A stretch of 64,000 bases of DNA from Hypanus sabinus (Eukaryota), in the NCBI RefSeq assembly GCF_030144855.1, contig NC_082731.1:24986001-25050000 (forward strand). The letters run 5' to 3'. A program made the position numbers and the translations under genes. The notes under the pieces are model-generated. The model searched no databases, was not told the origin of the DNA, and saw only the letters and a program-made list of their open reading frames with translations. The stretch's first letter is position 1; each line of letters begins with the position of its first letter. Shown one piece after another: positions 1,670 through 63,084 of this stretch.

Positions 1670-2600
1670 AATTTGTGATTCATGGAAAGGCCCATTGTTC
1701 TGCGAGTCTCGGAGATGCTGACAAATATTCCCTGCTTGGTTTGTCGCTGTACATTTACAGTTTCACTGCTGCTGTCTGGCATAAAAATACACTGACATAA
1801 AAATATATAATTTTTTTGCGATTCCATAAAATCTCGCCTATGATTGGACTGTGCAATGCTTCCTTCCGGATCAACATTTGGACTTCCTGAATTTATTCAC
1901 CTGCATATTTAATTGATATTTGGTCACGAATGAAATCATGGATTATTCGTAATGTATAAAGAAACAATGTTCACAATGATATTCCCCACCTACATCACTT
2001 TCTATAAAGGAATAGATGTAACTCCATAGGTTTTCCTCTTCTATTTGCATTATCCATTGCACAAGTAGATTTCCTGGGGAAGTAGTCATCCGGATTTTTT
2101 TTGTATTTCAATGTGCTGGTCATTTTTCACGTCATGGTCCATTTGACTTTGTCAGAATATATAAACTTCATTGGTGACAGCAATGCAGAGTAACAGCACT
2201 CACAACATAGAAGAGACTGCAACCTTACCGCTACCTGTCATTTTAATTTTACTTCTACTCTCATTCTGTGCTGGTATCATGCACTATTACAACAGACTCC
2301 TAAGGAACAGCAACTCGTCGTCCATGTGTTGAAGTTGTTACTTAAAGAGGAAACGACGAATTCTCATCTTTAGCAAATTCACGCTTCTTTATTTATTTTT
2401 TTTGTTTTGGTTGATCCTGTCTTCCCTAATGGAACGACATCTCTAGTGCGGAATGTGCAGCAAATTATTTGCTGTTGATAGTTGTCCTGACAACCGTGCC
2501 GTAGGGTGTTGACCACCGTAAGGCTGTCGTTCGGAAAGGAATACTGCATAAAATATTATAAGCAATTCCGAATATGTGAAGCTAACATGGAGTGCCTTGT
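1670..2600 (+). pseudogene. Degenerate paralogue of the D-J-downstream part of the NAR-TCR-like cassette
   Basis: 2130-2490 aligns clearly with 54160-54530. Shorter colinear anchors: 1673-1698 vs 40236-40260, 1828-1853 (ending GACTGTG) vs 40408-40435 (ending TACTGTG), and 1912-1925 vs 47756-47769. Confidence 0.6.
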
Positions 2601-3029: not shown

Positions 3030-3127
3030 GGATTATCATATCATTAAGTGAGATACGGAACTCTAACGAAATGCTCTTTACTACTGCTAACATGCAGTTC
3101 ACAGTGCAGTACGGTATATCACATACT
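3030..3127 (+). pseudogene. V-segment relic (FR3 end) with RSS
   Basis: Reads YHIIK*DTEL*RNALYYC*HAV, resembling the V motif IxDTELSDSALYYC. Followed by perfect CACAGTG (3100-3106), a 12-nt spacer and TCACATACT (3119-3127). No convincing 5' part of the V. Confidence 0.5.
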
Positions 3128-38960: not shown

Positions 38961-39239
38961 TCATTTCATTTACGCAGCTGCCCTATCTTATCGCATTTAC
39001 TCATAAGACGTTGCATTACTCATATTGGCGTTAAACAGTCAGGGAGGACCTTTCTCAACATTTGTAAAGAGATTGAGTGGAAACAGAACAATGGCTATTG
39101 TAAACTAAACCAGACGCTTTCTCGCACAAAAGTAATTTGGAAATAGCGCACCAATTGCATAGATCTAGAATACCAACCGTCAGACGTGGCTCTGCCCAGT
39201 TCTGAGGAATAACATACCTCGACTGTCTAGCATCTGTCA

Positions 39240-39245
39240 TATAAA
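39240..39245 (+). promoter_or_regulatory. Candidate TATA box of the V gene
   Basis: TATAAA about 30 nt upstream of the leader ATG at 39271. Confidence 0.4.
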
Positions 39246-39270
39246 CCATCAAACACCCGGAAACAAAACA

Positions 39271-39313
39271 ATGAACTTCCTCTTGAGTGCCACGCTCTGC
39301 CTCTGCTTTCGCC
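39271..39313 (+). CDS. Leader (L) exon of NAR-type V gene
   Basis: ATG-MNFLLSATLCLCFR plus C, then phase-1 donor GTGAGT at 39314. Resembles the IgNAR-type leader MNIFLLS... Confidence 0.9.
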
Positions 39314-39454
39314 GTGAGTACCGTTTACAATTTTGCACTGTAAGCAAGTGAAATATAAAACTGAATAATTTTGAATTTCATGAAGGCATAGTATTTCATG
39401 AATGCGTGTTTTACATCTTATGCCGCTTCTTTTCTCCATATTATTAATTTCCAG

Positions 39455-39751
39455 TCTTCTTCAGTCAGTCCGTGACCCAGAACCCGACAGTAGTGACGAA
39501 AAACGAATGTCAGCCTTTCACCATCACATGCAGGTTCCATAAAAAATCGTCAAGCGATCAATTTATAACCGGACAGTTCTTCAAGAAGACGCAGCCAAGA
39601 ACGGGGAGAGAGCCGATCCACACCGTGGGAAGAATTACTATAATGGAAAATAAAGCAGAAATGACAATTACAATGAAAATTATGAATCTCGAAGTTAAGG
39701 ACAGCGCCACCTATTTCTGTAAAGTTAAATACCGATTTAAATCTTCCTCTG
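39455..39751 (+). CDS. NAR-type (CDR2-deleted) V exon, most likely NAR-TCR V
   Basis: Polypyrimidine/CCAG acceptor at 39453-54 is in frame with the leader. Open frame FFSQSVTQNPTVVTKNECQPFTITC...ITGQFFKKTQPRTGREPIHTVGRITIMENKAEMTITMKIMNLEVKDSATYFCKVKYRFKSSS. Only 85 aa from the presumed N-terminal Gln to the second Cys, as in IgNAR/NAR-TCR V. Confidence 0.88.
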
Positions 39752-39791
39752 CACAGAGGTTAGAAAGGGATTGTGTCCGTGCTCAAATACT
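39752..39791 (+). other. V 3' RSS (23-type)
   Basis: CACAGAG (39752-39758). The best nonamer, TCAAATACT (39783-39791, 6/9 match), gives a 24-nt spacer. Confidence 0.7.
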
Positions 39792-40100
39792 CGCTGTAAT
39801 TTATCGTATTAACAGCTTAAGGAGGAGGCTCAATCTGCCGGTAATTGAACGAAGCTCTTCCCATACGTTCCATCTAGTATTGTTTATAATGTGACAGGAA
39901 GATTACTGTTAATACTCCAGTTATTTTCTCCTTTCTGAATTTGCAGGTATAAAATAATCTTTCGCATTTTCTTTTTAACAACAGCAAATGAAATAGTTTT
40001 CCCACTTAACAGTCCCTTAATTCAGACTGGACCCTGACCCAAAGGCATGGATGCTGGAATAACAGTTGAAAAGCTGTTATCTCCCGTCCATCCGTGTTCC

Positions 40101-40170
40101 ACGTTATGAACTGACATGAAACACTGTGGATTTGGGGATATACACAACAGAGCATAATCGAACAAAAACT
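40101..40170 (+). other. D segment GATTTGGGGATATA (40129-40142) flanked by 12-RSS on both sides
   Basis: ACGTTATGA, 12 nt, CACTGTG (40122-40128), then 14 nt with a TGGGGATA core, then CACAACA (40143-40149), 12 nt, ACAAAAACT (40162-40170, 8/9 match). Confidence 0.88.
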
Positions 40171-40396
40171 TTCCGCCCTGAGAAAGAATATATTCCAGAG
40201 TCGAGAAAAAATTTACATGTTGAATTACGTTCGCGTTGTGATCCGATGAATACCATTGTGATTATCGACTTTCAGGATTTTTTCTTTGATTTTTCTGCAG
40301 TATGAGAAGGCGAATTTTGCAAAGTATGATGCTGCATTTTATAGTTGTCTTTGTCATAGGTAGCTTCACAGTGGTCTCTGAAACACTAAATGATAT

Positions 40397-40435
40397 TGTT
40401 AATGTTTTAAAAGTCTGGCACATTTGTATACTGTG
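40397..40435 (+). other. J-type 5' RSS with 23-nt spacer, abutting/overlapping the LTR
   Basis: TGTTAATGT (6/9 to GGTTTTTGT), exactly 23 nt, TACTGTG (40429-40435). It lies 227 nt after the D RSS, and the paralogous position (1847-1853) has GACTGTG. Confidence 0.6.
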
Positions 40436-41305
40436 TGACGAATTCAAGCAACAATAAATATATGAGTTAGGCAGGGATTTTTTATAACAAATAGGACGTT
40501 TATTAAACAATGAAAACACCCCCCCCCCCCCAAAAGTAAACAAATCACTAACGTAAACGGAAATCAACTGCTGTGCGGCAGCTTAAACAGTTCATAATGC
40601 AAGGGAGCTTAAACAGTTCTTAAAACGATGTTGCAAAAACAGTTCTTCAAAGTAGTATTGCAAAAGTTCAAAATGCCTGCAGTCCATTTAAAGGAGAGAT
40701 TATTTAAGACGATTTAAATTCTCTTTCACGTCGTGTTGTTTCGGTTCCCAAATCGAACTTTTCCCATGAAGAATTTTAAGAAGGTGAAATAAAACGGCTT
40801 AAAGGCACTGACCTTTCCTTTACAAAATTGTTCCCAATACTTTCTGCTATTATTCACAGGGATTTACACGAGAACAGTCAACGAATTCCTTCCGAATGAG
40901 GATCAAACAAGGTCGAACCTGTTTCACCATCGAAATCGATTTTCCTCGATCATTTAACTCACTAACTCCGATCTTCACTCTCCACTGATTCTCAACGAGC
41001 ATTATTATAAAGAAACTGCTGGCAATGAACCTTCAAAATTCAGGGATTAAATAAAACTTCATCTTCCAATTAAACTGCGTCATAACATTAAATCACGCAG
41101 TGGCATGAAGTCAACCAGCCACGAACTGCCGCTCTTCACAGGGAGGGGTCCTACTTTTATACCCTTTAAAAAAACTTTCACATGACCTCTACTGGCGGGA
41201 AAATTACGTCACTCCACCATCACAAGACCATTACCTCAAGTCCAGTATAGCTTCAACCCCAGTCTCGTAACAAGGGTACCACTGTCACGTCACGTGTACG
41301 AAACA
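40434..41305 (-). repeat. 3' LTR of the Gmr1-like element
   Basis: TGTGACG...CGAAACA termini; homologous to 46867-47745. Confidence 0.9.
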
Positions 41306-43774
41306 CCTCCCTCCAAAAAAATATTTTTCGTCTGACAAGAACAAAAATTTTAACAATTATTTACAAGAAAAACAAATGTATAACTTTTATACCCTACACA
41401 ATATACAATACATTATCATCATATAACATCTTACAACTCACAATACAGTAGGAGTGTTACAATTGTAAAAAAATCACTCCATAAAAGAAAAATTACATTG
41501 TACATTCAACATCGAGATAGACAATCAGCAACCACATTATCTTTACCTTTAATATGATTTATCACAATATTGTACTCTTGCAACATTAAACTCCAATTTA
41601 ATAATGATCTGTTTTTGTTTTTCATCTTACTCAGAAAAGCTAACGAATATGATCAGTGTAAACAATAAGTGTTTTTTGATTTGTACCAACATATACCTCA
41701 AAATATTCTAAAGCTAAAACAAGAGATAACAATTCCTTCTCTATTGTCGAATAGTTTCTTTGATGCTTATGAAATTTCTTAGAAAAGTAAGGTACTGGAT
41801 GGTCAACCTCATCACCCTAATTCCTTTGCATCAATACTGCTCCTGCAGCCTCATCACTAGCATCTACAGCTAATGAAAAAGGTTTTTCAAAGTCAGGTGC
41901 CTTAAGCACAGGTTGTTGACATATCATTGTTTTCAGTTTTTCAATGCTTCTTGACAAGGCACTGTCCACACAAACTTCACATTCTTCTTCAAGAGGTCAG
42001 TTAATGTAAGGGCAACATTAGCAATTTTTTTTCAAAATTTTCGATAATATCCTACCATTCCCAAGAATCTTCTGAGAGTTTATTTTCCCCGTTGGAGTGG
42101 GAATCTCTAAAATTGCCGGAAACGTTGCCTGAACAGGAGCAACCTTACCTTTACCCACAACATAACCAAGGTAATTCACAGTGGCATGTCCAATTTCGCT
42201 CTTAGCTAAATTAATAGTTAAGTTAGCTTTTGAAAGCCTTTCAAACAATTTCTCCTCCTAAATAATGTGTGCTTCCCAAGTATCAGTTGCTGGCACCAAA
42301 TCATCAATATAAGCTTCAGGATCTTTCAATCCCTGAATCACAGGGTTAATCATTCTCTGGAAAGTACATGGGGCATTCTTCATCCCAAATGGAAGAACAT
42401 TATATTCATATAGCCCAGCTGGAGTTAAAAATGCATAAATCTCCCTGCCTCTGTCCGTTAATGGAATACACCAATACCCTTTCAATAAATCAATCTTTGT
42501 AAGGAACTTTGCTTTCCAACTTTATCTACACAATCATCTACTCTAGGAATTGGATATGCATCTGATTTCGTTACAACATTCACCTTCCTATAGTCCGTAC
42601 AAAACCTAATACTGCCATCTGGTTTTGGCACCATAACACATGGTGAACTCCAATTCGAGTTAGAAAGTCTAATTATATTATTCTCTAACTTATATTCAAT
42701 TTCTTTCCAGCAAGTTCACATTTTTCTATGTTCATCCTATATTGATGTTGTTTAATAGGTTTGACATCTCCAACATCTACATCACGTGAAGCTACAGTAG
42801 TCCTTCTCGGAACATCTGGAAAGAACTTTTTTATATTTCAAAATTAATTCCTTCATCTGCTGTTTCTGCTCTGGCTGTAAATGCGCTCGTTTCTCATCAA
42901 TATTTCCCAGTATGTTTGAGTTTGGTAACATAACAGAAGCAATGTTGGATTTAGAAAGAAATTCAGATGAATCAACTATAATGATCCTAGTTAAATCAAA
43001 CTCATTCTCACTAACCACAACAGTCACAGTATAAGACTGTTTACCAAAATGTGTTTTAATCATATTTATATGGCAAAGTTGTGTTGACCTTCTACGGTCT
43101 GGAGTGTTTATCACGTAATCCGCATAATTGATTTTAGACACAATTTCACAAGGACCATGAAATCTAGCTTGTAAAGGATTCGTTTGCTCTGGGAAAAGAA
43201 CCAACACCTTGTCTCCAGGCTTAAACATCCTCATCCTAGTTTCTTTGTCATACCAAGTTTTCATTTGCTCCTGAGCCAATTTTAAATTTTCCTTGGCTAA
43301 TCTACAAGCTTTATGTAACCTGTCCTTAAATTTCAAAACATCGTCTAACAAATTAGTGTGTATTTACTTACTAATCCACTGTTCTTTTAAAGCTAGAGGT
43401 CCTCTAACTCGATGCCCAAATACAAGTTCAAATGGACTGAAACCTAAAGATTCTTGTACCGATTCCCTTACTGCAAATAAAATTGAGTTTTTACCCTCAT
43501 CCCAATCACTTTCATTTTCCACACAATATGTCCTAATCATATTCTTGAGGGTAGACTGAAACCTCTCCAAGGCACCTTGCGATTCTGGATGGTATGCAGA
43601 CAAAGTGATTTGCTTAGCTCCCAATTTATAAATTATCAGTTGAAACAATTCAGACATAAATTTACTGCCTTGATCAGTTTGTATTTCCCTAGGTAATGTA
43701 AAATAAGTAAAGAATTTTATAAGAGCCTTATTCATAAGTGGTACTGCATCTGGAAACCTAGATGAAGTAATGAT

Positions 43775-44510
43775 ATAATCATATAACAATCACAGCTCGG
43801 AAACAGGCCATCTCGGCCCTCCTTGTACGGACCGAACTCTTAATCTCACCTAGCCCCACCTACCCGCACTGAGTCCATAACCCTCCACTCCTTTCCTGTC
43901 CATATACCAATCTAATTTTACCTTAAGTGACACAACTGAACTGGCCTCTACTACTTCTTCAGGAAGCTCATTCCACACAGCTATCACTCTCTGAGTAAAG
44001 AAATACCCCTCGTGTTTCCCTTAAACTTCTGCCCCTTAACTCTCAAATCATGTCCTCTCGTTTGAATCTTCCCTACTCTCAATGGAAACAGCCTATTCAC
44101 GTCAACTCTATCTATCCCTTTCAAAATTTTAAATAACTCGATCAAAACCCCCCTCAACCTTCTACGCTCCAATGCATAGAGACCTAACTTGTTCTACCTT
44201 TCTCTGTAACTTAAGTGCTGAAACCCAGGTAACATCCTAGTAAATCGTCCCTGCACTCTCTCTAATTTATTGATATCTTTCCTATAATTCGGTGACCAGA
44301 ACTGTACACAATATTACTAATTTGGCCTTACCAATGCCTTGTACAATTTTAACATTACATCCCAACTTCTGTACTCAATGCTCTGATATATAAAGGCGAG
44401 CGTTCCAAAAGCCTTCTTCACTACCCTACCTACATGAGATTCCACGTTCAGGGAACTATGCACTGTTATTCCTAGATCTCTCTGTTCCACTGCATTCCTC
44501 AATCCCTACC
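43775..44510 (-). mobile_element. CR1 3' fragment inserted in the Gypsy integrase
   Basis: LKLYKALVRPN and ERRRLRGVLIELFKILKG ORFs interrupt the integrase between 44570 and 43789. Confidence 0.95.
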
Positions 44511-46841
44511 ATTGATCGTCAGCAAATACTGATAACCAGTTTTTGTCTTTGGAAAAGGACCAACGCAATCTACAATAACGATAGAAAACGGTTCACCAAA
44601 TGCTGGAACAGGTTGTAATGGAGCCACTGTAATGGAGTAACTTGATTTGGTTTACCCACAATTTGACAAGTATGGCACGTTTTACAAAACATCGCCACAT
44701 CTTTTCTTCGACCAGGCCAGTATTTTTTTTTAATCTTGTGCACAGTTTTCCTTACCCCTTGAAGTCCACCTAAAGGCACACTGTGAGCTAAAGACAAAAT
44801 CTCATTTCGATGATCTTTAGGGACATCTACCTGGTAAACAATATTCCATTCCTCACTTGCAGGAATTGTAGGTGATCTCCACTTCCTCGTCAACACTCTT
44901 TTCCAAGTAATATTCTATTGGCATCTTCTCAATTTCACTATCCAGTAGAGCGTGTTCCGTTAATTTTATAATTTCAGGGTCTCTATTCTGCTCTGCCTTC
45001 ATCTCCTTCCGAGACGGAGATAAATGTTCATAGACAGACGTACTGCAAGAATCTTGTTCAAAAAACGAAGGTAAGAAAGTCTCCGACACATCCTCAAAAC
45101 CCGAATCCAGAGTTGAACAGTCATGAGTAACAACCTCATTCTGCGGATCAAGCTTTTTAGCCATAGCTCCAGTCACATCACAGGAAGAATCTGAGTTAAA
45201 ATTCATCTCTGGTTCCTCTGACTCCATTGTCAAATGCACTTCAGGAAAACCTTGCCCACCTGCCAGTTCATTACCTAACAATAAAGAAATACCCTTCACA
45301 GGTAAGCTATGCTGTAATCCTACTTTAACAAATCCTGTAACTAACCCTGACTTTAAATTTACGTTATGCAAATATAGAGGCATAAAATCACTCCCAACAC
45401 CTCTTATATAATTTAACTCACCAGTATCAGACTCTTCATTAAACTTCAATACACTGTCTAACATCAGTGATTGAGAAGCTCCAGTATCCCTAAGGATTTT
45501 GATTGGCACCCAAGTAGATCCTTCTTTCAAGTATACAAGCCCTTCATTTATAAAATGATCATACCCCTTTCTAACTTGGTCAGACTCTAACAAAACCTCA
45601 TTTGTGTTTATCTAACCCTGTAATTTTACAGGTGCTTCAGTATGTTGCACTCAAGCATCTGGAACTGCTTCCTTTTTCTTTTTCAATCGGAAACTGTTAG
45701 CTATTACATGGCCAGGCTTCCTACAATAGTTACAAATAGGACCAAACTGTCTTTCCTTCACAGGTGTTCCATCCTCCATACATTTCTCATTAACTTCTGA
45801 TTTAATTTCTGATTTACCTTGAGTCTCCGTGTTATTTTTCTTCTTAAAAATTCTGCCCTGAGGAAATTTATTCTTATGGATTAAAACATACTCATCAGCT
45901 AATCTAGCACAGTCCTGCAATGTATCAGTATCCCTCCCATTTAACTAGGTCCATACTTCAACAGGAATGCTTCTTTAAAATTCCTCCATCAAAATCAGCT
46001 CTTTCATTGTATCATTGTCCCCATTTACATTTTTAGAAGAAACCCATCTCTCAAAACTCACAGCTTTTCCATACGCAATTTCCACATAAGTTTTTTCCAC
46101 AGACTTCTGAATCTTTCTCTATACACTTCTGTGACTAATTCATATGCTTTTAAAATATGCTTTTTCACAATATCATAAGCAAGTGCTTGCACAGCAGTTA
46201 AAGCTGTATAAACTCGTTGTCCTTTGTTTTTAATTACACTCTGTAACAACACTGACCATTTATCTTTTGGCAGCTATGAAATCTGAGCAATCGTTTCAAA
46301 ATGTTGGAAATATCTTTCCAATTCCATTCAACTAAATGGTGGGACCAATTTAATTTCTTGACTAGCAACAAACGGTTTTCTAGAACCAGAAGACTGATTC
46401 GCAGATCTTAATTCCGTCATCACGTTTTCAAATTCCTTTTTTTTTCTTATCAGCTTCTAACGTACAACGGTCCAATTCTGCATTACATTGTTCCAACTTC
46501 ATTTGTACGATTTGCAGCTGCATCTCTATATTACTTATTGGAAGCGACTCTAAAATCGATTCATCAAAATCACCAAAATCCACATACTGTGACGCGATTT
46601 TTCTCTGTATTAGAGCCATTGATGTAGTCTTCAAAATACATTTAATTTGCAACCTACTAGCGATCTCAGACAGTTCAGTTTTTTTCGCCTTCGCTAACAA
46701 CTCCGCATCTGGCGAAGCCAGAAACTCATCAATAATTGTTGCCGAATACCACTCACAAACCAATCAAACAAAAGAATCGAGTATTCCGCTTTTCCAAAAC
46801 ACCGATTCAAAATTTAACAATCATTTAAAATCAAATGATCC

Positions 46842-46860
46842 AATCTGGACGCAGCCCCCA
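46842..46860 (-). other. Primer-binding site, tRNA-Pro-like
   Basis: Minus strand TGGGGGCTGCGTCCAGATT resembles the tRNA-Pro PBS TGGGGGCTCGTCCGGGAT and lies 6 nt from the 5' LTR. Confidence 0.7.
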
Positions 46861-46866
46861 TATTTA

Positions 46867-47745
46867 TGTTAAGGATTCAAGCAACAACAAATATATGAGT
46901 GAGGCAGGGGTTTTTATAACAAATAACACTTTTATTAAACACTGAAAACAAACCTCCCAAAAGTAAACAAATCACTAACGTAACCGGAAATCAGCTGCTG
47001 TGCGACAGCTCGAACCGTTCCTAAAGCAATGAAGCTTAAACAGATCATAAAGCGATGTTGCAAAAACAATTCTTCAAAGTAGTATTGCAAAAGTTCAAAA
47101 TGCTTACAGTGCATTTAAAGGAGAGACTTTTTAGACGATTTAAATTTTCTTTCACGTCGTGCTGTTGCAGTTCCCAGTCGAACTACATTTTCCATGAAGA
47201 ATTTTCCGAAGGTGAAATGAAACGGCTTAAAGGCACTGACCATTCCTTTACAACACTGTACTCAATCCTTTCTGCTATTCACAGGGATTAACACGAGTAC
47301 AGTCAACGAATTCCATGCGAATGAGGATCAAACAAGCTCAAACACTTTTTACCGTCGAAATCGACTTTCCTCGATCTTGTAAGTCCCGAACTCCAATCTT
47401 CCCTCTCCTCTCATTCTCAACTAGCAGTATTATAAAGAAACTACTGGCAACGACCTTTTAAACTTTAGACATTAAAGGATATTTCATCTTCCAACTAAAC
47501 TGCGTCAAAACATTACATCTCGCAGTGGCATGAACTGAACGTGGCAAATCCAGCCACAAACTGCCCCTCCTCACAGGGAGGGGTCCTCCTTTTATACCCT
47601 TTAAAATAAAACCTGTCGCATGACCTCTACTGGCGGGAAAATGACGTCAGTTCACCATCACAAGATCAATACCTCAAGCCCAGTGTAGCTTCAACACCTG
47701 TCACGTGACAAGTACACCACTGACACGTGTCACGTGTACGTAACC
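46867..47745 (-). repeat. 5' LTR of the Gmr1-like element
   Basis: TGTTAAG...CGTAACC termini; homologous to 40434-41305. Confidence 0.9.
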
Positions 47746-47809
47746 CTTATACCTCATTGATATTCGGTCCTCCGTGACTCCTTTAAGTTGGATAGGTTTG
47801 CCCCAGCAT

Positions 47810-50100
47810 GCCAGGCAGAATCGACAGGCCGAAGAGATGTTGACTTTTCGGACTGAGGCCTTTCCTCAGGACTAACTGAAATGAAAGCTCGTAAGACATT
47901 TGAAAGTAAGAGGGGGAGCGGAAATGCGAAATGATAGGAGAACACCGGAGAGCTGAGAGCCAGAAAGGTGATTGGCAAAAGAGATAGAGAGCTATAGAAT
48001 GTTCAGGATCGTGGCAAGGGAGGCCTAGGGAGAAAGAAAGAGGGAAGGGAGCACCAGAGGAGATGGAGAACAGGCAGAATGATGGGCAGAGAGAGAAAAA
48101 ATGGGATGGGAAAATACAAAAAAACAAAAATATAAATATCGGGGATGGGGAAAGAGTCGGGGCATTAACGGAAGTTCGAGAAATCAATGTTCGTGCCATC
48201 AAGTTGGAGACTATCCTGCCGGTATATAAAGTGTTGTTCCTCCAACCTGATTGTGGCTTCATCTTGATAGTAGAGGAGACCATGGATAGACATATCAGAA
48301 CGGGAATGGGACGTGGAATTAATATGTGTGAAGATCATCCAATTGGAAGATCCTACTTTATCTGGCGGACCCCTCCTCCCGTCTGCAACCCTCCTCCTCT
48401 TTATGGACACCCCGTTCTGGTCTTCTGCCTGCTCTGGAACTCTTTATTGCTAATTGCTGACGGGACACCAACCGTCTCGATTTCACCACACCGTGTTCCA
48501 ATTCCAACCTCTCTGCTTCTGAACGCCTTGCTCTCCACTCGCTCTGCACCAATCCCAACATTATAATAAAACCCGCTGATAAGCGGGGAGCTGTTGACGT
48601 CTGATGTACTGATCTGTATCTGGCCAAGGCACAACGACAACTCTTCGACAATTCATCTTAATTACCCCTTGATCATGACACCACAGAGGAGCACCAAGCC
48701 ACTGTCTCCTTTACCATCACCAACATTATCAGCTCTGCAGATCTCTCTTCCACGGTTACCAACCTCATAGTTCCCAGACCACGCACTACGTTTCTCCCTC
48801 CTACCCAAGATCCACAGACCTGTCTGTCCAGGGAGACCCATTGTCTCAGCCTGCTCCTGCCGTACCAAACTCATTTCTGCATACCTTGAGAATATTTTAG
48901 TCCCTCTTGGTCAAACCCTTCGCACCAAAGTTCGTAAAACTTCTCACGCTTTGAATTTTTTAATGATTGTGATCCATGCCCCTCCCCCGCCTTATTTTCA
49001 CCATGGACGTCCAGTCCCTATATACTTCCATCCCCTAGCAGTAAGGTCTCAGAGTTCTTCGCTTCTTTATGGATTCCAGACATAACCAATTCCCCACTAG
49101 CACCTCTCTCCCCCGTCTAGCGGAATTATTTCTTTCACTCAATAATTTTCCTATGGCTCCTCCCACTTCCTGCAAACCAAAGTTTTAACCATGGGCACCC
49201 GTATGGGTCCCAGTTATGCCTGCTTTTTTGTTGGCTTTCTGGAACAGTCCATGTTCCAAGTCTATACGGGTGTCCATCACCCTCCTTTCCTTCGTTACAT
49301 CGACGACTGCATTGGCGCTGCAACCTGCATCATACTGATCTCGTTGACTTCATTAAATTTTACTCCAGGTTTCACCCTGCCTTCAAATTTACCTGGTCTA
49401 TTTCTGACACCTCACTCCCCTTTCTTAATCTTTCTGTCTCCATCCCTGGAGCCGTCCCATCTATTAATATGTAGGATAACCAGATAGACTCTCTCAGCTA
49501 CCTGGACTACTTCTCTTCCCACCCTGTCTCTTGCAAAGATGCAGTCCCCTTCTCACAATTCCTCCATCTCCGCCGCATCTGCTCGAAGAATGAGATATTT
49601 CATTCCACGACGGAGGAGGTGTCTTTCTTTTTTAAACATAGGGGCTTCCCTTCTTCCACCATCAACTCTGTTCTGAATCACATCACTTCCATTTCCCGCA
49701 CATCTGCCCTCACCCCATTCGCCCACTACCCCACTCGGAACAAGGTCCCACTTGGCCTCACCTACCACCCCATCATCCTCCTGATTCAACGTAAATTCTC
49801 CGTAACTTCCGGTTCCTCCAACGGGATCCCACTACCAAGCACATCCCCCCCCCCCCAACCTTTCTGCTTTCCGCAGGCATTGTTCCCTACGCTACTCCGT
49901 TGTCCATTCACCCCCCACCCCCATCCCTTCCCACCGATCTCCCTCCAGGCACTTAACCTTGCAAGCGGATCAAGTGTTAAACCTGCACTGACATTTCCTC
50001 ACTCACCACCATTCAGAGCCCCAGAAGGTCCTTCCAGGTGAGGCGGCAATTCACCTGTGAGTTGGCTGGTGAGCTATACTGCATCCTCTGCTCCCGGTCT
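47810..50100 (+). mobile_element. Penelope-like element: inverted 3'-end copy (47810-48330) followed by plus-strand RT and start of GIY-YIG
   Basis: Plus strand has KPADKRGAV, MDVQSLYTSIP and MGTRMGPSYAC..LRYIDDC. Minus-strand ORF 48165-48410 has RLEEQHFIYRQDSLQLDGTNIDFSNF. Confidence 0.9.
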
Positions 50101-50149
50101 GGATTTTCTGGAGTATGCAATTTCTCTACTTTCACATTCACGTCATTAG

Positions 50150-53100
50150 AACCACATAAACTTTAAAAAAAAAAAAACAAAGAAACCCTACAGCACAATA
50201 CAGGCCACACGTACAAAATGCTGGCGGAACGCAGCAGGCCAAGCAGCATCCTTAGGAAAAAACACAGTCGACGTGTCGAGCAAAGACCATCAGTCAGGAT
50301 TTACTGAAAGGAAAGATAGTAAGAGCATAACACACGAACTTCGGCCCACAAAGTTGCGCCGAACAAGTCTCTAACTTAGAAATTACTCGGGTCGCCATAG
50401 CACTCTTTTTTTCTGAGTTCCATGTACCTATCGAAAAGTCTCTTCAAAGACCCTATTGTATCCGCCTCTATCACACTAGCCGGCAATCTATTCCACGCAC
50501 TCATCGCTCTCCGAGTAAAACGGTTACCCCTGACGTCTCCTCTGTACATATTTCCAAGCATCATAAACCTGTGCCGACTTGTAACAGCGATTTCCGCACT
50601 GGGAAAAAGCCTCTGACTGTCCACAAGATCAATGCCTCTAATCATATTATACAGCGCTATCAGTTCACCTTTCATTCTCAATCGTTCCAAGGAGAAAACG
50701 CTGAGTTCACTCAACCTGTTTTCATAAGGCATGCTCCCCAATCCAGCAACATACTTATAAATCTCCCTTACACCCGTTCTGTGGGTTCAATATCCTTCCT
50801 GTATTGAGGCGGTCTGAAATGAGCACAGTACTCGAACTGGAGTCCGACCAGTGTCCCAAATAGCTGCAACATTAGCTCTCGGCTCGAAATTGAATTCACC
50901 GATTGATGAAGGCCAATACACCGTATGTCTTCTTAACCATGGAGTCAATATGCGCAGAGCGTTCTATAGACAGGTACCTCAAGATCCCTTTATTCCTCCA
51001 CACTGCCAAGAGTCTAACCATTAGTAATATATTCTGCCATCATATTTGACCTACCAAAATGAGCCACTACATAGTTATCAGGGTTGAGTTCCATCTGCCA
51101 CTTCTCAGCCCAGTTTTGCATCTATCCATGTCCCTTGTAACCTCTGACAGATACCACACTATCCACAATGCCCCAAACCTTGTGTCATTAGCAAATTTCC
51201 TAACCCATACATCCACTTCCTCATACAAGTTATTTATTAAAAATCACGAAGATTAGAGGTCGTTGAACAGATCCCTGTGCCTCACAACTGGTCACCGAAC
51301 CCAATGAGGAATATGACTCTTGTAGAACCACTTTTTTGCCTTTTGTGGGCCAGCCTGATCTGGATCTACAATACAATGTCCACTTGGATTACATGCCTCC
51401 CTATTATCTCAATAAACCTTGCATGAGGTACCATATCAAATATCTTGCTGAAATCCACGCACACTACATCTACTACTGTTCCGGCATCAATGTGTTTAGT
51501 CACATTCTGAAAAAAAAACAATAGGACTCATAAGGCATAAACTGCTGTTGACAACACTATACTGTCTATTCCTAAACATATTATACCTCTGGAAATGTTC
51601 ATAAATCCTGCATCTCAGGATCTTCTTCATCAACTTTCCAACAACTGAAGTAAGATTCTCTGGTCTACAATATTCTGCGGTATATGTACTCCCCATCCTG
51701 AATAAGGGAATAACTTCCGCAAACCGCCAATCCTCTGGAACCCCTCCTGTCCCAATTGATGATGCAAAGATTATCGTCTGAGTTGCAGCAAACAACTCTA
51801 TCGCATCCCAAAGTATCCTGGGGTCCAACCCATCCGATAACGTCGATTTATCCAATTTGATACGACCTAAAATCCCTGGTACATCTTGCTTCTTAATATC
51901 TATATGTTCAAACTTCTCAGTACGCTAGGTGTCAGCAATACAATGGCCAGTAATGCTTTTTCCATAGTGAATATTGAAGTAAAGTATTCATGAAGTACTT
52001 CAGCTATTTGGTCCAGTTGCATACATATTTTCCCACTTTCACAATTGATAGGTCCTCGACTTTCACTCCTTATCCTCTTGTTCATCACATATGTGTAGTG
52101 TGGCTTGGAGTTTTCCTTACTCCTCCCCTCCAAGGCCTTCTCATGGGCCCTTCTGGCTCTACTAATTTATTTCTTAAGCTCCTTTCTCTTAACCCTATAA
52201 TCTTCTAGATCTCTAAGATTACCTAGCTCTCGGAACCTTTTGTAAGATTTTCTTTTCTTCTTGATTAGATACACACCACGGTTCATTTAACCCGCCATAC
52301 CTTCCGTCTCAACTGAACGAACCTATGCAGAACTCGACACAAATATACTCTGAACTTTGCCACATTCCTTCCGTAACTTTCCTTGGGAACATTTGTTCTA
52401 AATTTAAGCTTCCAAGTTCCCGCCTGAAAGATTCATAATTCCTCTTACTCCAGCTAAACGTTTTTCTAACGTGTCTGTTCCAATCTCTCTCCAATGCTAT
52501 TGTAAAGGAGATAAAATTATGATCACTATCTCCAAAATGTTCTCCCCCTGAGAGATCTAACGCATGACCATGCTCATTTCCCAATACCAAACGAACTATT
52601 GTATCTACTCTTGTAGGCTTATCCATGTATTGCGTCAAGACACCATCCTGAACACACCTAACAAACAATACCACATCTCGCACCCTGGCTCCAGGGAGAT
52701 GCCAGTCGATATTTGGGAAGCTAAATTCTCCCATCACGACAATTCTAGTTTTTTTTTAATTATTACACCTTTAAGGATCTCTTTCCCTTTCTGCTTCTCG
52801 ATATTCTTGTTCCTCTTATATGGCCTATAAAAATAACCTAGTATGGCTATTACATCCTTCCTACTCCTAACTCACAACCACAGAGAGACGATAGACAATC
52901 TCCTTTTCTACAGCATTGACACTATCGCTGATCAACGGTGCCACGCCCCACCTCTTTAGCCTTCATCCCTTTCCTTACTAAAATATTTTAAACCCGGCAC
53001 ATAAAGTAACCATTCCTGTGCCTGATCCACTCAACCCTCTGTAATGGCCATCACATCGTAGCTCCAACAACTAAGCTACGGGCTAAGCTTTGCTCACAAT

Positions 53101-54100
53101 ACTCCGTGCGTTATCACAGACAAATCTCAAACCGTCGGTCTGAGCGCGTTCCCACTGCCTACCTTAATTCACCCACTGTATCGAAGCTTTCCTTATTTGT
53201 GAGCCAACTTCCTCATCCCCAGTCACTTCAGTTCGGTCCGCAACACCCAACAATTCTAGTTTAAGCACTCCCCAGTAGCCAAAGCAAACACCGCCGCCTG
53301 GCTATTGGTCTCCATGGGATTCAAGTGCAACCAGTCCTTTTTGTACTGATCATACCTGCTCCAAAACAAGTACCAATGGTCCAGACAGCTGAACCCTTGT
53401 CCCACGGGTCAAATCCCTCAGCCACGTATTTATTCTCCACCTCACTCTATTCCTATACTCACTGACACGTGGCTCAGGCAGTAATCCCGAGATTACTACT
53501 TTTGCGGTCCAACTTCTCAACTTCCTTCCTCACGCCCTGTAGACTGTTTTCATGACATTTTCCCTTTTCCTAACTCTGCCATTGGTACCAATATGCAACC
53601 CGACCTCGGTCTGTTCTTCCGCCCACTGCCGGATACCTTGGATCCGAACTGAAATACCCCGCACCCTCGCACCGCAAGGCAAACTAACATTCAAGTTTCT
53701 TTCTTGCGGCCACAGGATTGCCTCTCTGACCTCCTAACTATAGACTCCCCTATCATTACTGGATTTATCTTCTTACCCTACCTGTCTGAGCCGCATGGCC
53801 GGAGTCTGGCCTGAGGCAGAGGCACTGTTGTTTCACCCAGTTAGGCCGCCCCTCCCAACAGTACTCAAACAGGAGTACAGGGGTAGAGACACAGGGATAC
53901 TCTCTAGTACCTGACTCTTTCCTAGCACCTGACTCTAGCCATTCCCTCTACTGAATGTTACCCATTTGTCTGTTCCCTTTGGCGCCGGTGTGTCCACCTC
54001 TCTATGACTCCGTGCTATCATCACCTTGCTCTCCCTGACCAAACGAAGGTCATCGAGCTGCAACTCCAGTTTCCTAACGTGGTCGCTTAAGAGCTGCAGC
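50150..54100 (-). mobile_element. CR1, near full length, decayed
   Basis: APE (MGEFSFPNIDW...PTRVDTIV, 52309-52737), RT (YCRPENLTSVVGKLMKKIL, 51496-51855), C-terminus (50376-50741), and esterase-like ORF1 remnants at about 53300-53800. Confidence 0.92.
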
Positions 54101-54297
54101 TCTCTTTTGTTTTTCTTTTATTCTCTCTCTCTCTTACTCTCTCTAATTCAATGTACAGCGTCACTGTCCATTTGACTTTGCAAGAAAACGTAAAAAAAAA
54201 TAATTGTTGAGAACGAGGCAGAGTAACTGCACTCAAACCGTAGATGTGACTGCAAGCTTACAGCTACCTGTCATTTTAATTTTACTTCTTCTTTCAG

Positions 54298-54609
54298 CCT
54301 GTGCTGCTATCATGTACCATTACAATACTGTCCCACAGACGCCAAAGGAACAACGCCTCGTCATCCATGTGGGAACGTTGTTATTTACCAGTGGCACGAC
54401 GAATTCCAATCTTTAGCAAATTCACACTTTTTTTAGTTTTTTTTTTACTGAACTTGCCTTCCGTAATGGACATTTCCAGCGCGGGTTGTGCAGCAGCATA
54501 TTTTCTGTTGATAGTTGTCATGTGGAGATGCGTACTAGTTGTTGATAGAGTAAAAGCTTCTTGGAGCTGTTCCTATATTACATCCGAAGATGATTCCAAC
54601 CACTTTTGA
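54298..54609 (+). pseudogene. Possible leaderless (supporting V-delta-like) V relic
   Basis: Strong acceptor TTTTAATTTTACTTCTTCTTTCAG ends at 54297. NTVPQTP is FR1-like and YFLL...VDRVKAS...EDDSNHF* is FR3-like, over about one V-exon length. No clear WYRQ motif and no RSS. Confidence 0.3.
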
Positions 54610-56048
54610 AATCTTACTTTTAAAAGAAATATTGTTATTATGTGGATTACTAAACCTACGGAAAAAAAGAAGTGGGCTCTCCATGAGGAGGTGGAATCTA
54701 TTATGGAGGTGCTTTGGAAACATAAACGAGAATTTCCTGGGGAGTTCCAGAAATTGTTTCAGCAACAAAGCGCTGAGAGTAAATATATTAATGTAAAATT
54801 GGATTCGAATCAATAAAAAAAATGAATTGAGCATTATAAACCATTAAGTGACAATGAAGAAACGTTGACGATTTTGGACGCGAGAATTGAAGATCTATAA
54901 AAGCTTTGTGAGAAATAGTCATAGGCTAATGAAAAAGTAAGACAGAAGATTAACAGACAATAACAGCAGAAGAAACAATCTGCGAATTCTGGGTCCTGAA
55001 GAGTTAATAAAAGGTAAACAAACTAAGAAATTCTTTGCAAATTGTTGGCAAAATTGTTTCCTACAATTTTAAAATCTCCGCCTAAGATCGATTGAGCCAA
55101 GTGATCGTTCCGGCCCAGATCTGCCGTAGGAGTGAGACCTCGATCAATGTTCATCTGTTTGCATGATTTTAAAACATAGGAAATTATTCGTGAATCCGTC
55201 GAAGTGACATGATTGATTACAACGTGCAGAAGATCAGAATTGTCGAGGATTTTTCTCCTGAGATGATGAACGAATACTTCAGGGCATTATTTTTAAGGTT
55301 ATGCCAGTCCAAAGGTTTTAAACCGACTCTCCGTTATCCTGCTCTGCTCAGAATTATTTTGAGAAATGGCTCTCAGAAATGGCTCCGTTCGATATAGGGC
55401 GCTCAAGATTTCTTTAGGAAGAAGTGTATGGCTGTTTCACATTTTCTTACATTAATAATTGCTTCTTTTGCTTTTGACATACCTTTGCAGCTAACTCTCT
55501 TTTTGAAATCTTTAATGCTTTATTTAGATAATAAGATTTTAATGAGTTAATACTCTGTGTGTTACTCTGTAGACTTTCGATAGTTCTTCAATATTTTATA
55601 TTATACTTATTTTTCAGGTTTTATCAATACTGTTTTGTCCTGTTTAACATCTAGTTAACATTGAAAACGTATTTTGAGCGATAACAGTAGACTTTTTTGG
55701 ATGGTACTGCCTTTTGGTTTAGCTGTCGACTGTCCATTTGTCGACGTTCTTTCGGTGGTGTGTGGGTTGCTGGGGGTCTTTTTTTCTGCATGCTATTTTG
55801 GTATCATAGCCATATATGCTGTCTGTTTACCCTATCTCAAAGCTATTATTTGGATTTAATATACATTCCAGAACTTACAATTCAAACCTTTCTTTTTACG
55901 TGATATTAAAAATTGATTATGCTATTTATTTGCTTCGTTTTTGAGTGAAATGATTAAATAAGTCCGTGAAACGTAATAGGATGTTTACCTATATTAAGAT
56001 GTCTTAAGGTGCCAATTATTTTTTACATGTAACTCTCATGCTCCCTTC
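54610..56048 (+). mobile_element. L1 5' part (ORF1), decayed
   Basis: NNSRRNNLRILGPEE and IRIVEDFSPEMM..GFKPTLRYPALLRI are L1 ORF1 motifs. Confidence 0.85.
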
Positions 56049-59000
56049 TGTCACCTGGCTGACTTACTCAGGAATTGGGCCTTCAGCACCTCGTTTAGTT
56101 CCCAATCTATTCCCAGGTTCCAATAATTACGAACCCCTGCATTCCATCAAGCAGAATAGTATAAGGGTACTGTGACCACTACTGGTCGACAGGTGTAGGA
56201 GTCACCTCACTCCATGTTGTTTAGGACTATCGGTTCTAAGTCAAAACTTGTTCCTGAATTATCTACCAAGATCACGACTCCGGGAAAAAATAAAAACCCT
56301 GGAAACCTTTCCAGGCTAGCTACGACGGCAGCGTCTCCCTCCTCGGCCTCCGCGCCCGTGTTCAGCACTTGGGTTCGTTCCACCGTCATGTCCTTGCAAC
56401 AGAACGAACTGGCCAACATGAACCAGGCGGACTCAAATCCCTTGAAACAAGCCCTCGCCAGCCAGGGCTCCTTACTGGGCCTTCAAGGCCAACTTCTTCG
56501 GGAAGTCATGGATAACCTCCGCTCCCTTTCAGTGAAGGTCAGGGAACAGGCCGAGAGAGTATCCATCCATCTTACCCCGTCGACACAGGGAGCTCTGTCT
56601 GCATAATCCAGACAATATACAATAGATGCAGAAGTAGACCATTCGGCCCTTCAAGCCTGCATCGCCATTCTGAAATAATAGCTGATCATCTACTATCAAT
56701 ACCCGGTTCCTGCCTTGTCCCCATATCCCTTGATTCCTCTATCCATAAGATACCTATCTAGCTCCTTCTTGATAGCATCCACAGAATTGGCTTCCACTGC
56801 CTTCGGAGGCAGTGCATTCCAGATCCCCACAACTCGCTAGAAGAAGACGTTTTTTCCTTAACTTTGTCCTAAATGACCAACCCCTTATTCTCAAACCATG
56901 TCCTCTGGTAATGTACTCTCCCAGCATCTGGAACATATTTCCTGCCTCTATCTTTTCCAATCCCTTAATAATCTTATATGTTGCAATCAGATCCCCTCTC
57001 AATCTCCGTATTTCCAGCGTGTAGGAGCCCAGTCTCTCTAACCTCTCTGCGTAAGACAGTCCGGACATCCGAGGCATTAACCTCGTGAATCTACGCTGCA
57101 CTTCCTCTATAGCCAGGATGTCCTTCCTTAATCGTGGAGAGCAAAACTGTACACAATACACCAGGTGTGGTCTCACCAGGGTCCTGTCCAAATGCAAAAG
57201 AATTTCCTTGCTCTTTTACTCAATTCCTTTTGTAATAAACGACAACATTCTGTTAGCCTTCTTCACTGACTGCTGCCCTTGCTCATTCACCTTCAGTAAC
57301 TGATGAACCAGGACTCCGAGATCTCTTTGTATGTCTCCCTTACTGAACTCTACACCGTTCAGACAATAATTTGTCTTCCTGTTTTTACTCCCAAAGTGGA
57401 TAACCTCACACTTATTCACATTAACCGTCATCTGCCAAGTATCTGCCCACTCACTCAGCCTAACCAAGTTACCCTGAATTCTCCTAACATCCTCATCACA
57501 TGTCAAACTGCCACCCAACTTAGTATCATCAGCAAACTTGCTGATGTTATTCTCAATGCCTTCATCTAAATCGTCGATGTAAATTGTAAACAGCAGTAGT
57601 CCCAATACCTAGCCCTGTGGCACCCCACGAGACACCACCAGCCATTCCGAGAAACACCCATTCACCGTTACCCTTTGCTTTCTATCTACCAACCAGTTTT
57701 CTATCCATGTCAATATCTAACCCCCCAATGGCATGAGCTCTGATTTTGCCCACCAATCTCCTATGTGGGCCCTTATCAAATGCCCTCTGAAAATCGAGGT
57801 ACACTAGATCCACTGGATCTCCGTTGTCTAACTCTTCCTGGTCGCATCCTCGAAAAACTCCAATAGACTAGTCAAGACAGACCGTCAGACAGACAGACTT
57901 TATTGGCGAAGCCCAATGCGTCCATTACACGTCCGTCAAGACAGCTGCAGGTACCCGAATCAGAGTACTCCGGCGGATATCTGGGGAAGTGCCAGGCTTT
58001 TGTTCTGCAATGCTATTTGGTATTTGAGCAGCAGCCATCCACATGCGCCACCGATCGAGCAAAAGTAGCTTACGTTATGGGGTTGTTGCGAGGAAATGCC
58101 TTAGCTTGTGCCAACGCGATTTGGGACAATTAGCCAGAGACCTGCTCTTCCTTACCCACCTTCATTTCAGTGATAAGGGAGATTGTTGACCATAAAGTCC
58201 GCAGTATTTTTGCCGCCAAGCGTCTTTTCGCTCTCTGTCAAGGCTCAAGCAATGTTGCCGAATACTCCATGGAGTTCCGGACGCTAGTGGCTGAATCGGG
58301 TTGGAATGATGAGGCACTCCAGGCGGTATTCCGGCAAGGACTCTGTGACAAATTTAAGGACGAGTTAGCGACTAGGGATGATAATAACATCCTGGACTCA
58401 ATGATCTCCCTGGCCAATAGACTGGACAATCGAATCCGAGAACGGCAGAGGGAGAGAACCGGTCGCCCGGCTCTTTTGGCCATCACACGGCAGGCTTTAC
58501 CCTCTACTCCCAGTCCGAAACTGTCTCCTCCTCCCATTCCTAGAATAGCACCCGTCTTGGCCGTTTCCACCACACCAGGAGAGTAACCAATGCAGCTGGG
58601 ACGGAGCCGTCTTTCTCCCACAGAGCGACTCCGGAGATTCAGAGCCGGTAATTGTTTCTACTGCGGTCAGTCGGGTCATTTTTGCGCAACCTGCTTCCTT
58701 AGGCCAAAATGGGAGGGCTCACCAGTAGAAAGGGGGACCATGCTGAGTCAGAAAACATTCCCTTCAGTCCTCCAAACCCGGATGCAGATCGAAGCTACTG
58801 TAACCTACAACCAAAAGTCCCTGTCCTTTTCTGCATTGATAGACTCCGGTGTTGAGGGGAATCTGTTGGATGAATTCACAGCTGCCCAAGCCGAAATTCA
58901 TCGAAAGCCGTTGACTGCCCCTCGGGAAGCTCCGGCACTTGACGGAAGACTTCTGACACGAGTCACTCAACGTAATCCACTACTGCCTTTGATAATCTCT

Positions 59001-61165
59001 GGGAATCATCGGCAGAAGGTACAATATAAACTAATTTCCTTTCCTCAGGCTCCAATAGTAGTCGGGAAAACCTGGTTAAGCAGCCATAATATTTGCATTG
59101 ATTGCTCCACAGGGAAGATCGTCAGCTGGACTCGGTTACGTCACGGCACCTGTCTGCAGTCGACCTTTTCCCCTGTAAGAACTACCATGACAACGTCTAC
59201 TATAGAACCCTCCGACTTGTCCAGGGTTCCAGCCGAATACACGACCTGGGACAAGAGATTAGTAAAAAAAACTGCCCTGCCTTTCCCTGCCACCACATCG
59301 ACCATAAGATTGTGCTATCGACTTTCTCCCCAGAGCTCCTCCACCCAACATTCGGCTGTATAACATGTCTGTCCGGACTCCGAAACAATGAAAGGACACA
59401 TTAGTGAATCTCTCGCTGCGGGCATTATTCGACCCTCATCCACCACGGTGGGCGCAGGGTTTTTCTTTGTGGGGAAGAAGGATGGCTCCCTCCGTCCCTG
59501 CCTCGACTATCGAGGCCTAAATCATTTAAACATCAGGATGAAGTACCTACTGTCCCTTATAAGATCTGCGTTCGACCCAGCTGATGGAGCCAACATCTTC
59601 TCGAAGTTATTCCTCCGAAACGCTTACCAATTGTTCCGGGGGAGGGAGGGAGACGAGTGGAAGACGGTTTTCAATACGTCTTTAGGCCACTTCGAATACT
59701 TATTCTTTCCTTCCGGCCTCACTAATGACCCGCAGTTTTTCAAGCCTTCATCAGCGATGTACAAGGAGACTTCATTAACCGTTTTGTGTTTGTCTACCTA
59801 GATGACATTCTGATTTTTTTCCAACTGTCCCAAACAACACGTGCACCATGTCAGTGAAGTCCTGCAGAGGCTGGGGAGATGGAATTATTCGTACTGTCGG
59901 AGAAATGATAATTCCACGTCTCCTCGGTCAGCTCCTAGGTTATATCATCGAGAGGGAACAGGTGAGAGCTGATCTCGAGAAGATCCGGGCTGTGGCGGAG
60001 GGGCACAAACCCACGGAACGAAAAGAACTCTAACGTTGCGAACTTCTATCGCCGGTTCATCAGAATCTACAGCCAGGTGGCGGCTCCCCTTACCAGACTT
60101 ACCTCACTTGTCATACCTTTCCTTTGGTACTCCGAGGCTGACTCAGCATTCGCGGAACTGAAGAGGCGTTTCAGAACGCTCCCGTTCTGACTCAACCAGA
60201 ACCCTCCAATCAGTTCATTGTGGAGGCTGATGCCTCTGTCTCAGGGGTGGGATCGGTACTGTCACAACGTTCAGGCACGGATGAGAAACTGCATACCTGT
60301 GATTTCTTCTCTCGCCCGTTGTCTCAAGCTGAACGAAATTACGACGTGGGGAACTGAGAGCTACTAGCTGCTAAACTGATGTTGGAGGAGTGGAGCAACT
60401 GTTTGGAGGGGGCGTAACACCCGTTCATCGTCTGGAAAAATCACAAGATCGTTGAATATATCCAAACCGCCAAACATCGGAATTCCAACAAGGCCCGTTG
60501 GGCATTATTTTTTGGCCGGTTCAGGTTTTCCCTGACCTATCGTCCGGGGTAAAAGGACGGGAATATGTTTCGGAGAAGTTCCTTTTCAACCCCGAGACCA
60601 TTCCTCCACCATTCTGTATCGTGTCTGCCCTCACCTGGGAGATCGATTCAAAAGTCAAAGAGGCCCAAAGGACTCTTTGCACCGGATCTCCCAATTGCCT
60701 CTTTCTACCCGATGTTGTTCCATTACAGTTTCTACAGTGGTGGCACACGTCTCGTACTGCTTGCCATCCCAGAATCGATCGGAACCGGACTCTCCTGAAG
60801 AAGCATGTCTGTTTGCCCTCCATGGACGCTGACACCCTTTCCAATGTTTCTGTCTGTTCCGTCTGCGCCCGTGGAAACGCCTCCCGTCGGCTGGTTTTAA
60901 CTGAGGCTCATTAAAGTTTGGATGAATACGCCAGGAATTTGGCAGCGTGAGGCGAACCGCTTTAGGATTGATAAGCGTTTCCAAATTGAATGTTCCCAGG
61001 AAGCGTGGGTGGGGTGGCGAGTCTCCTGTGTTCGCATTTAAGCGGGATGAGCCGAGAGGAAAGCAACACCATCTGCCCCGGTTGGTACTCCGGTGCTGGA
61101 GTCCGGTGTCGATCGGCCTTTTTCTTATTCCGATCTGTTGATCGTAGACAAGTTTAACTTTGGGC
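56049..61165 (+). mobile_element. Chromovirus-type Ty3/Gypsy element, decayed: LTR, gag, PR, RT, RH, part of IN, and an inverted IN fragment at about 60915-61165
   Basis: Starts TGTCA at 56049, and the LTR matches the 20329-20961 family. Gag motifs SSNVAEYSMEFRTL and CFYCGQSGHFCATC; PR motif ALIDSG; RT motif [24 protein letters not shown]; RH motif IVEADAS. Confidence 0.92.
56610..57880 (-). mobile_element. CR1 3' fragment inserted in Gypsy gag
   Basis: TIYIDDLDEGIENNISKFADDTKLGG (57216-57605) and RTLVRPHLVYCVQFCSP (56754-57197). Confidence 0.95.
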
Positions 61166-61169
61166 CAGA

Positions 61170-63050: not shown

Positions 63051-63084
63051 AAACGGATTTTGGATATGTTTTACTATGTAGTAA

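What the first reader, a model, noticed from the sequence alone, without database searches (positions are those of the whole stretch)
40397..47770. LTR element starts exactly at the J heptamer and the J coding sequence is missing
Seen: the LTR's terminal TG coincides with the last two bases of TACTGTG, and no target-site duplication is evident (left ACTG, right CTTA). In the relic copy about 50 nt separate the heptamer (1853) from the ATTGATATT(T/C)GGTC anchor (1912). Here that anchor (47756) sits only about 10 nt past the far LTR. Inferred: insertion or a linked deletion removed the J coding region, leaving V and D orphaned. More speculatively, the site coincides with a RAG cleavage point (germline RAG activity is invoked for joined shark Ig genes), but the normal LTR termini argue for ordinary integrase insertion.
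Basis: partly seen in the sequence, partly recalled or inferred. Interest (0 to 1): 0.7.

Follow-up and report, generated by a model that had tools for sequence, protein, structure and literature searches.

The report
Retrotransposon deletion in a NAR-TCR cassette
In a cartilaginous-fish T-cell receptor gene array, one gene unit has lost its J segment and its partner V segment, likely because two separate copies of one retrotransposon recombined and cut out the DNA between them; the apparent hit on the J recombination signal is a coincidence, so this is ordinary gene decay.

Summary
The cassette is a NAR-TCR unit (NAR-type V, D, J, then a supporting TCR-delta V) in a tandem array of about 16. 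The LTR start at 40434, the missing TSD and the missing J are confirmed. The central claim is not: TACTGTG is not the J heptamer. None of 15 paralogous empty sites ends in GTG there (closest paralog TACTGTC); the last G is LTR DNA, and the real J signal begins 36 nt further on. The '1853/1912 relic J' is spacer DNA 6.8 kb behind the previous cassette's supporting V, and the anchor match is chance-level. J and the supporting V are both gone (at least 1.9 kb, about 6.9 kb to the first resumed homology). The element is a hybrid: its LTRs fall in different subfamilies (AU p=1.3e-4), whereas 20 of 20 other copies have sister LTRs; the family makes 4-bp TSDs. Host DNA on the two sides also comes from different cassette lineages. 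Best explanation: unequal recombination between two same-orientation insertions deleted what lay between. Nothing points to RAG. A known mechanism, a clean example, low interest.

The parts
39271..39313 (+). Leader exon of the NAR-TCR V gene, GT donor at 39314
   Evidence: Sequence; in frame with the V exon
39455..39751 (+). NAR-type V exon, open frame, Cys in the A-B loop, no canonical Trp
   Evidence: Pfam V-set E=2e-9; best PDB match a VNAR; features as in PMC1845163
39752..39790 (+). V recombination signal, heptamer CACAGAG with 23-nt spacer, weak nonamer
   Evidence: same place in paralogs
40122..40170 (+). D segment (40129-40142) between a 5' heptamer and an intact 3' 12-spacer signal with nonamer ACAAAAACT
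   Evidence: Conserved in the paralog alignment; coordinates
40397..40435 (-). Accidental 23-spacer signal look-alike, completed by the first two LTR bases; not the J signal
   Evidence: such look-alikes occur about 4 per 64 kb
40434..41305 (-). Left LTR (3' LTR of the minus-strand element); its left part is of subfamily S1
   Evidence: polypurine tract at 41306-41314
41306..46866 (-). Decayed Gypsy-type internal region with integrase domains; collinear with other copies at 88-90%
   Evidence: Pfam Integrase_H2C2, rve, Integrase_p58_C; primer-site-like motif 46851-46860
43776..44512 (.). Later repeat insertion inside the element (absent from three other copies; CR1-like by recall)
   Evidence: 92% match to another copy in the locus
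46867..47745 (-). Right LTR (5' LTR), subfamily S2; ends ACC where the family ends ACA
47746..47801 (.).
47802..54101 (.). Other interspersed repeats between the element and resumed cassette DNA
54148..54522 (+). First resumed cassette DNA: spacer that lies behind the supporting V; of another cassette lineage than the V-D side
1847..1925 (+).

Best explanation
This NAR-TCR cassette has lost its J and its supporting TCR-delta V, and the LTR element at the break is a hybrid of two subfamilies, likely made when two same-orientation insertions of one Gypsy family recombined and deleted the DNA between them. Inferred steps: (1) after this cassette duplicated from its sister, one copy integrated in the D-J spacer after TACTG, 36 nt upstream of the J signal, leaving ACTG as its left target copy; (2) a second copy sat further downstream, in repeat-filled spacer, with CTTA as its right target copy; (3) unequal crossover, possibly inside the left LTR near 40930-41000 (not pinned down), fused them and removed J, the supporting V, spacer and likely part of a further cassette. 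The heptamer look-alike is an accident of TACTG meeting the LTR's TG. V and D remain unrearranged and are likely a pseudogene remnant.
For: Empty sites in 15 paralogs. J and supporting V absent by blastn and tblastn. 4-bp TSDs: solo LTRs 15 exact and 3 with one mismatch of 18 readable; two-LTR copies 17 exact, 1 one mismatch, 2 none of 20 readable; window 1 of 4 bases. LTR-LTR distance 0.156 against 0.019-0.057 in 20 copies and 0.097 in one; shared stem -0.001 against 0.013 or more in all 21. Tree of 43 LTRs: 20 of 20 other pairs are starred sisters, the window's two are split by a 100/99 branch, AU p=1.3e-4. Subfamily sites: 8 of 8 S1 in 40741-40929, then 21 of 25 S2. Host DNA: V-D side sister to cassette c25247 (88.6%), downstream spacer 69% to c25247 and grouped with c24978/c24885; AU p=1.6e-55. 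Deletions between same-orientation LTRs are a described mechanism (PMC7156093, passages; PMC1779541, passages).
Against: With a first, smaller LTR set the AU test did not reject monophyly (p=0.098). Both window LTRs are long branches, and comparison copies were best hits, hence biased to little-decayed ones. 2 of 20 ordinary copies also lack a TSD. Six or seven of the eight S1 sites cluster in 40741-40756 and may be few events; segment identities along the interior are mixed; the right half of the left LTR is no closer to the right LTR (p-distance 0.15; AU 0.29 right half, 0.014 left half), so the crossover is not located. The right LTR's last base is altered, which also fits a one-ended or later break. 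The lineage switch in host DNA could predate the deletion. No orthologous pre-deletion allele was seen.
Confidence: 0.82

Rival explanations
1. One ordinary insertion, then an independent deletion that broke at the right LTR's edge; the discordant left LTR is due to ectopic gene conversion from another copy.
For: 2 of 20 other copies lack a TSD yet have sister LTRs; right LTR ends ACC; most of the element types as S2.
Against: Needs three separate events at one element (insertion, conversion, a break at the very last base); 0 of 20 other copies show discordant LTRs.
Confidence: 0.1
2. Uncoordinated (one-ended) integration of a single cDNA deleted host DNA at the time of insertion.
For: Altered terminal base of the right LTR; uncoordinated integration causes deletions and is tied to damaged CA ends (PMC2857682, passages).
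Against: A single cDNA has identical LTRs; these are from different subfamilies.
Confidence: 0.04
3. Germline RAG cut at a J heptamer and the element was captured there.
For: Germline RAG-like joining is reported for shark light-chain genes (PMC2193156, abstract); a CAC-bearing 23-spacer look-alike exists at 40397-40435.
Against: The look-alike did not exist before the insertion; the LTR starts 2 nt inside it, not at a heptamer border; the true J signal is 36-75 nt away and is deleted whole; V and D signals are unrearranged; normal TG end.
Confidence: 0.01
4. Assembly mis-join between two copies of the repeat.
For: No reads of this individual were available to check the junctions.
Against: The best other copies are only 90-91% identical to this one, too unlike for a collapse; the element is collinear and has no N; the missing J-V DNA of this lineage was not found elsewhere in about 700 kb of the locus.
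Confidence: 0.03

Closest known systems
NAR-TCR (doubly rearranging TCR-delta of cartilaginous fish)
   Same: Leader plus NAR-type V with A-B loop Cys and no Trp; D; in paralogs J and a supporting TCR-delta V with CDR1 Cys about 1.4 kb behind J; ordinary V-delta genes interspersed.
   Different: This unit lacks J and the supporting V; it is the only one of 16 aligned units without J-homologous DNA behind the site.
Inter-element (unequal) recombination between LTR retrotransposons
   Same: Two-LTR element without TSD, discordant LTRs, host deletion with the break at the element (PMC7156093, PMC1779541, passages).
   Different: Here it acts in an antigen-receptor array; the pre-deletion allele was not seen, only paralogs.
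Germline-joined shark Ig genes (Lee et al. 2000, PMC2193156)
   Same: Germline change in a cartilaginous-fish antigen-receptor cluster.
   Different: No V-D or D-J join, break not at a real signal, integrase-type end.

Membership tests
NAR-TCR cassette | V related to IgNAR V, with leader | tested here: met
   Best PDB match VNAR E=2e-9; leader in frame
NAR-TCR cassette | Cys in A-B loop, canonical Trp missing | tested here: met
   NECQ and GQFF in the translation; feature from PMC1845163
NAR-TCR cassette | D flanked by signals | tested here: met
   5' nonamer is weak
NAR-TCR cassette | Own J and supporting TCR-delta V downstream | tested here: not met
   Absent here, present in paralogs: a broken member
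NAR-TCR cassette | Supporting V lacks a leader; TCR-delta constant region downstream | not tested
   CDR1 Cys seen in paralogs; leader absence and C-delta not searched
NAR-TCR cassette | Rearranged and expressed | not testable with these tools
   No RNA holder listed
Intact LTR-retrotransposon insertion | TG...CA termini, primer site, polypurine tract, integrase | tested here: met
   right end reads ACC
Intact LTR-retrotransposon insertion | 4-bp TSD | tested here: not met
   ACTG versus CTTA
Intact LTR-retrotransposon insertion | Two LTRs are sisters | tested here: not met
   AU p=1.3e-4; p=0.098 with the first set
Inter-element recombinant | No TSD, discordant LTRs, host deletion at the element | tested here: met
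Inter-element recombinant | Crossover point located | tested here: inconclusive
Inter-element recombinant | Both parent insertions seen in an ortholog | not testable with these tools
   Only fragmented contigs of other organisms
RAG-mediated germline event | Break at the border of a genuine signal heptamer | tested here: not met

The most novel reading that the evidence does not exclude
The orphan V-D is still used: its leader, splice sites, open frame and D signal are intact, so D could be joined to the J of the next cassette about 82 kb downstream (cross-cassette NAR-TCR rearrangement), or to the 23-spacer look-alike that the LTR end created, putting retrotransposon DNA into a T-cell receptor joint. 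V dN/dS on this branch (9 nonsynonymous, 5 synonymous, 0.57) equals its intact sister's (7 and 4, 0.55), which neither shows nor excludes this.
Probability: 0.12. Interest if true: 0.55.

Novelty: new member of a known kind. Interest (0 to 1): 0.22.

Why it matters
It is a well-supported example of how NAR-TCR cassettes die: repeats in the array recombine and remove J plus the supporting V. It is useful for annotating this locus and as a caution that heptamer-like words at LTR edges are cheap (TG is both the LTR start and the end of a J-side heptamer). It gives no evidence for germline RAG activity.

Tried and rejected
Right flank as a displaced J: LIFG followed by stops looked J-like, but real Js here read ..GTGS.VTV and the stretch has no paralog match; rejected. 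39977-40366 as a second V relic (DAAFYSC word): the word is not kept across paralogs, which align as D-J spacer; rejected. Shifted boundaries: TATAC occurs at 40427-40431 and 47748-47752, but family termini and the empty site fix the left end at 40434 and the right flank does not continue as the empty site does; not a TSD. Window 2760-3100 as a supporting V: no open frame in paralogs, real ones lie elsewhere. Sequencing runs: best share 0.18, no RNA holder listed; contigs of four plus one further runs cover empty-site cassettes in pieces at about 85-95% identity but none spans this junction with the LTR; they cannot confirm or refute the junction. Rfam scan of 39000-56000 empty. Pfam gave no family for five repeat ORFs in 48771-52755. 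Crossover mapping inconclusive. Earlier findings: none. Papers: Criscitiello 2006 and Ott 2021 were not held, so signal spacer rules for NAR-TCR come from the paralogs here, not from print. Seen: passages of PMC1845163, PMC12227049, PMC6795676, PMC2857682, PMC1779541, PMC1940013, PMC7156093; abstract of PMC2193156; no supplements. Searches for NAR-TCR loci listed no paper on this deletion, but key papers are outside the library.

Full report
Setting. The window is G000:C76:24986001-25050000. The V exon at 39455-39751 is a V-set domain whose best solved match is a VNAR. It has a leader, a Cys in the A-B loop and no canonical Trp, the marks of NAR-TCR V given in PMC1845163 (passages). A DNA search of the genome returned 17 other matches, 16 of them within 24.75-25.32 Mb of the same contig. 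I fetched 24.74-25.45 Mb and mapped the units: V, D about 640 nt on, J about 380 nt further, a supporting TCR-delta V about 1.4 kb behind J, then spacer, with ordinary V-delta genes between groups.

Observation. The LTRs are 40434-41305 and 46867-47745, 87.7% identical; the element reads on the minus strand with integrase domains. The first TG of the left LTR does form the end of TACTGTG. The flanks are ACTG and CTTA.

The heptamer is not the J heptamer. In 15 aligned paralogs (two weak hits, L017 and L018, left out) none ends in GTG at this site; the closest reads TACTGTC. The real J signal is conserved further on: in the closest paralog the nonamer starts 36 nt and the J 75 nt past the insertion point; J is 55 nt, reads ..GTGS.VTV.. 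and ends at a GT donor in 7 of 7 units examined. The window's look-alike was completed by an LTR base, and look-alikes of that quality occur about 4 times per 64 kb (48 in 1.42 Mb of both strands). The 'relic' at 1847-1925 lies 6797 nt behind the supporting V of the preceding cassette and 8391 nt behind its real J. The anchor at 47756 scores 26 against it, p about 0.01 within that 390-nt piece but below at least 19 other places in the locus, and the longer conserved core of the paralogs does not continue.

What is missing. Real J DNA has no match in the window, nor has the supporting V (tblastn). Behind the right LTR come 56 unassigned bases and 6.3 kb of other repeats; cassette spacer resumes at 54148. 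Measured on the sister cassette, at least 1.9 kb (to the end of the supporting V) and about 6.9 kb (to the resumed spacer) are gone. The V-D side is sister to cassette c25247 (88.6%, 100/100), and that kinship runs at least 13 kb upstream; the resumed spacer is only 69% like c25247's and groups with c24978/c24885 (98/97; AU p=1.6e-55 against sisterhood with c25247, 0.025 against its clade). So two cassette lineages meet here; either more than one unit was lost (inferred) or the switch is older.

The element is a hybrid. The family has thousands of candidates. Of 29 best LTR hits, 18 were readable solo LTRs: 15 exact 4-bp TSDs, 3 with one mismatch. Of 30 fetched candidate elements, 21 held two LTRs and 20 had both ends readable: 17 exact, 1 one mismatch, 2 without. 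LTR-LTR distance is 0.156 here, 0.019-0.057 in 20 others and 0.097 in one; the shared stem is -0.001 here and 0.013 or more in all 21. In a tree of 43 LTRs (one cut-off LTR left out) 20 of 20 other pairs are starred sisters, while the window's two lie on either side of a 100/99 branch; AU p=1.3e-4. A first set of 33 mostly solo LTRs gave p=0.098. Diagnostic sites are S1 at 8 of 8 in 40741-40929 and S2 at 21 of 25 from 41004 on, which hints at a crossover inside the left LTR, but the sites cluster, interior identities are mixed, and the right half of that LTR is no closer to the right LTR.

Mechanism. Shown: insertion point, missing TSD, discordant LTRs, loss of J and supporting V, lineage switch in host DNA. 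Inferred: two same-orientation insertions, one in the D-J spacer after the cassette split from its sister (the sister's site is empty), one downstream, fused by unequal recombination. This is the mechanism described for deletions bounded by same-orientation LTRs (PMC7156093, passages) and invoked for over-diverged LTR pairs (PMC1779541, passages). Rivals are insertion plus independent deletion plus conversion (0.10), one-ended integration (PMC2857682, passages; 0.04), mis-assembly (0.03) and RAG (0.01). Germline RAG joining is reported in sharks (PMC2193156, abstract), but here no genuine signal borders the break and V and D are unrearranged.

Fate of V-D. Leader, splice sites, frame and D 3' signal are intact. 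The window branch has 9 nonsynonymous and 5 synonymous changes against 7 and 4 on the sister: too few to tell decay from constraint, though S17P and G54V hit residues kept in the four paralogs compared. Use with a downstream cassette's J is not excluded and is untested.

Verdict. A real deletion in a NAR-TCR array, likely by recombination between two retrotransposon copies; the 'exactly at the J heptamer' claim is a coincidence. Known kind, interest 0.22.

Noticed in passing
G000:C76:25315900-25320213 (L004, L005): Two NAR-type V-D-J units stand head to tail; the first has no supporting V of its own.
   Followed up: no
L018, G000:C76:23.70 Mb, minus strand: A divergent NAR-type V with an open frame and the A-B loop Cys, about 1.3 Mb from this array.
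   Followed up: no
G000:C76:24871807-24877706 (L133): Another copy of the same LTR family in the locus, with TSD TAAA, of a distinct subfamily, LTR distance 0.097; it sits in the same kind of repeat as the window's right flank.
   Followed up: partly
window LTRs and L133: Both elements in this locus have LTR end branches two to three times those of copies elsewhere; sampling bias towards best hits or a faster local rate.
   Followed up: no
G000:C76:25080367-25084424 (L022): An ordinary V-delta gene split by an insertion of about 3.8 kb of repeat DNA.
   Followed up: no
window 54523-64000 and L019:1-483: About 10 kb of retroelement DNA (gag, protease, RT hits) interrupts the resumed spacer.
   Followed up: no
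window 47802-50102: Repeat with a YIDD-type RT motif and a degenerate hammerhead-like word at 47846; Penelope-like by recall, no Pfam or Rfam hit.
   Followed up: partly
window 41306-46866: No RT or protease hit among the five element ORFs scanned, and most copies are 5.8-6.6 kb: possibly a non-autonomous family.
   Followed up: no
L012, L013, L014, L015, L016: Several other cassettes of the array carry stops, frameshifts or damaged J signals: decay is common here.
   Followed up: partly
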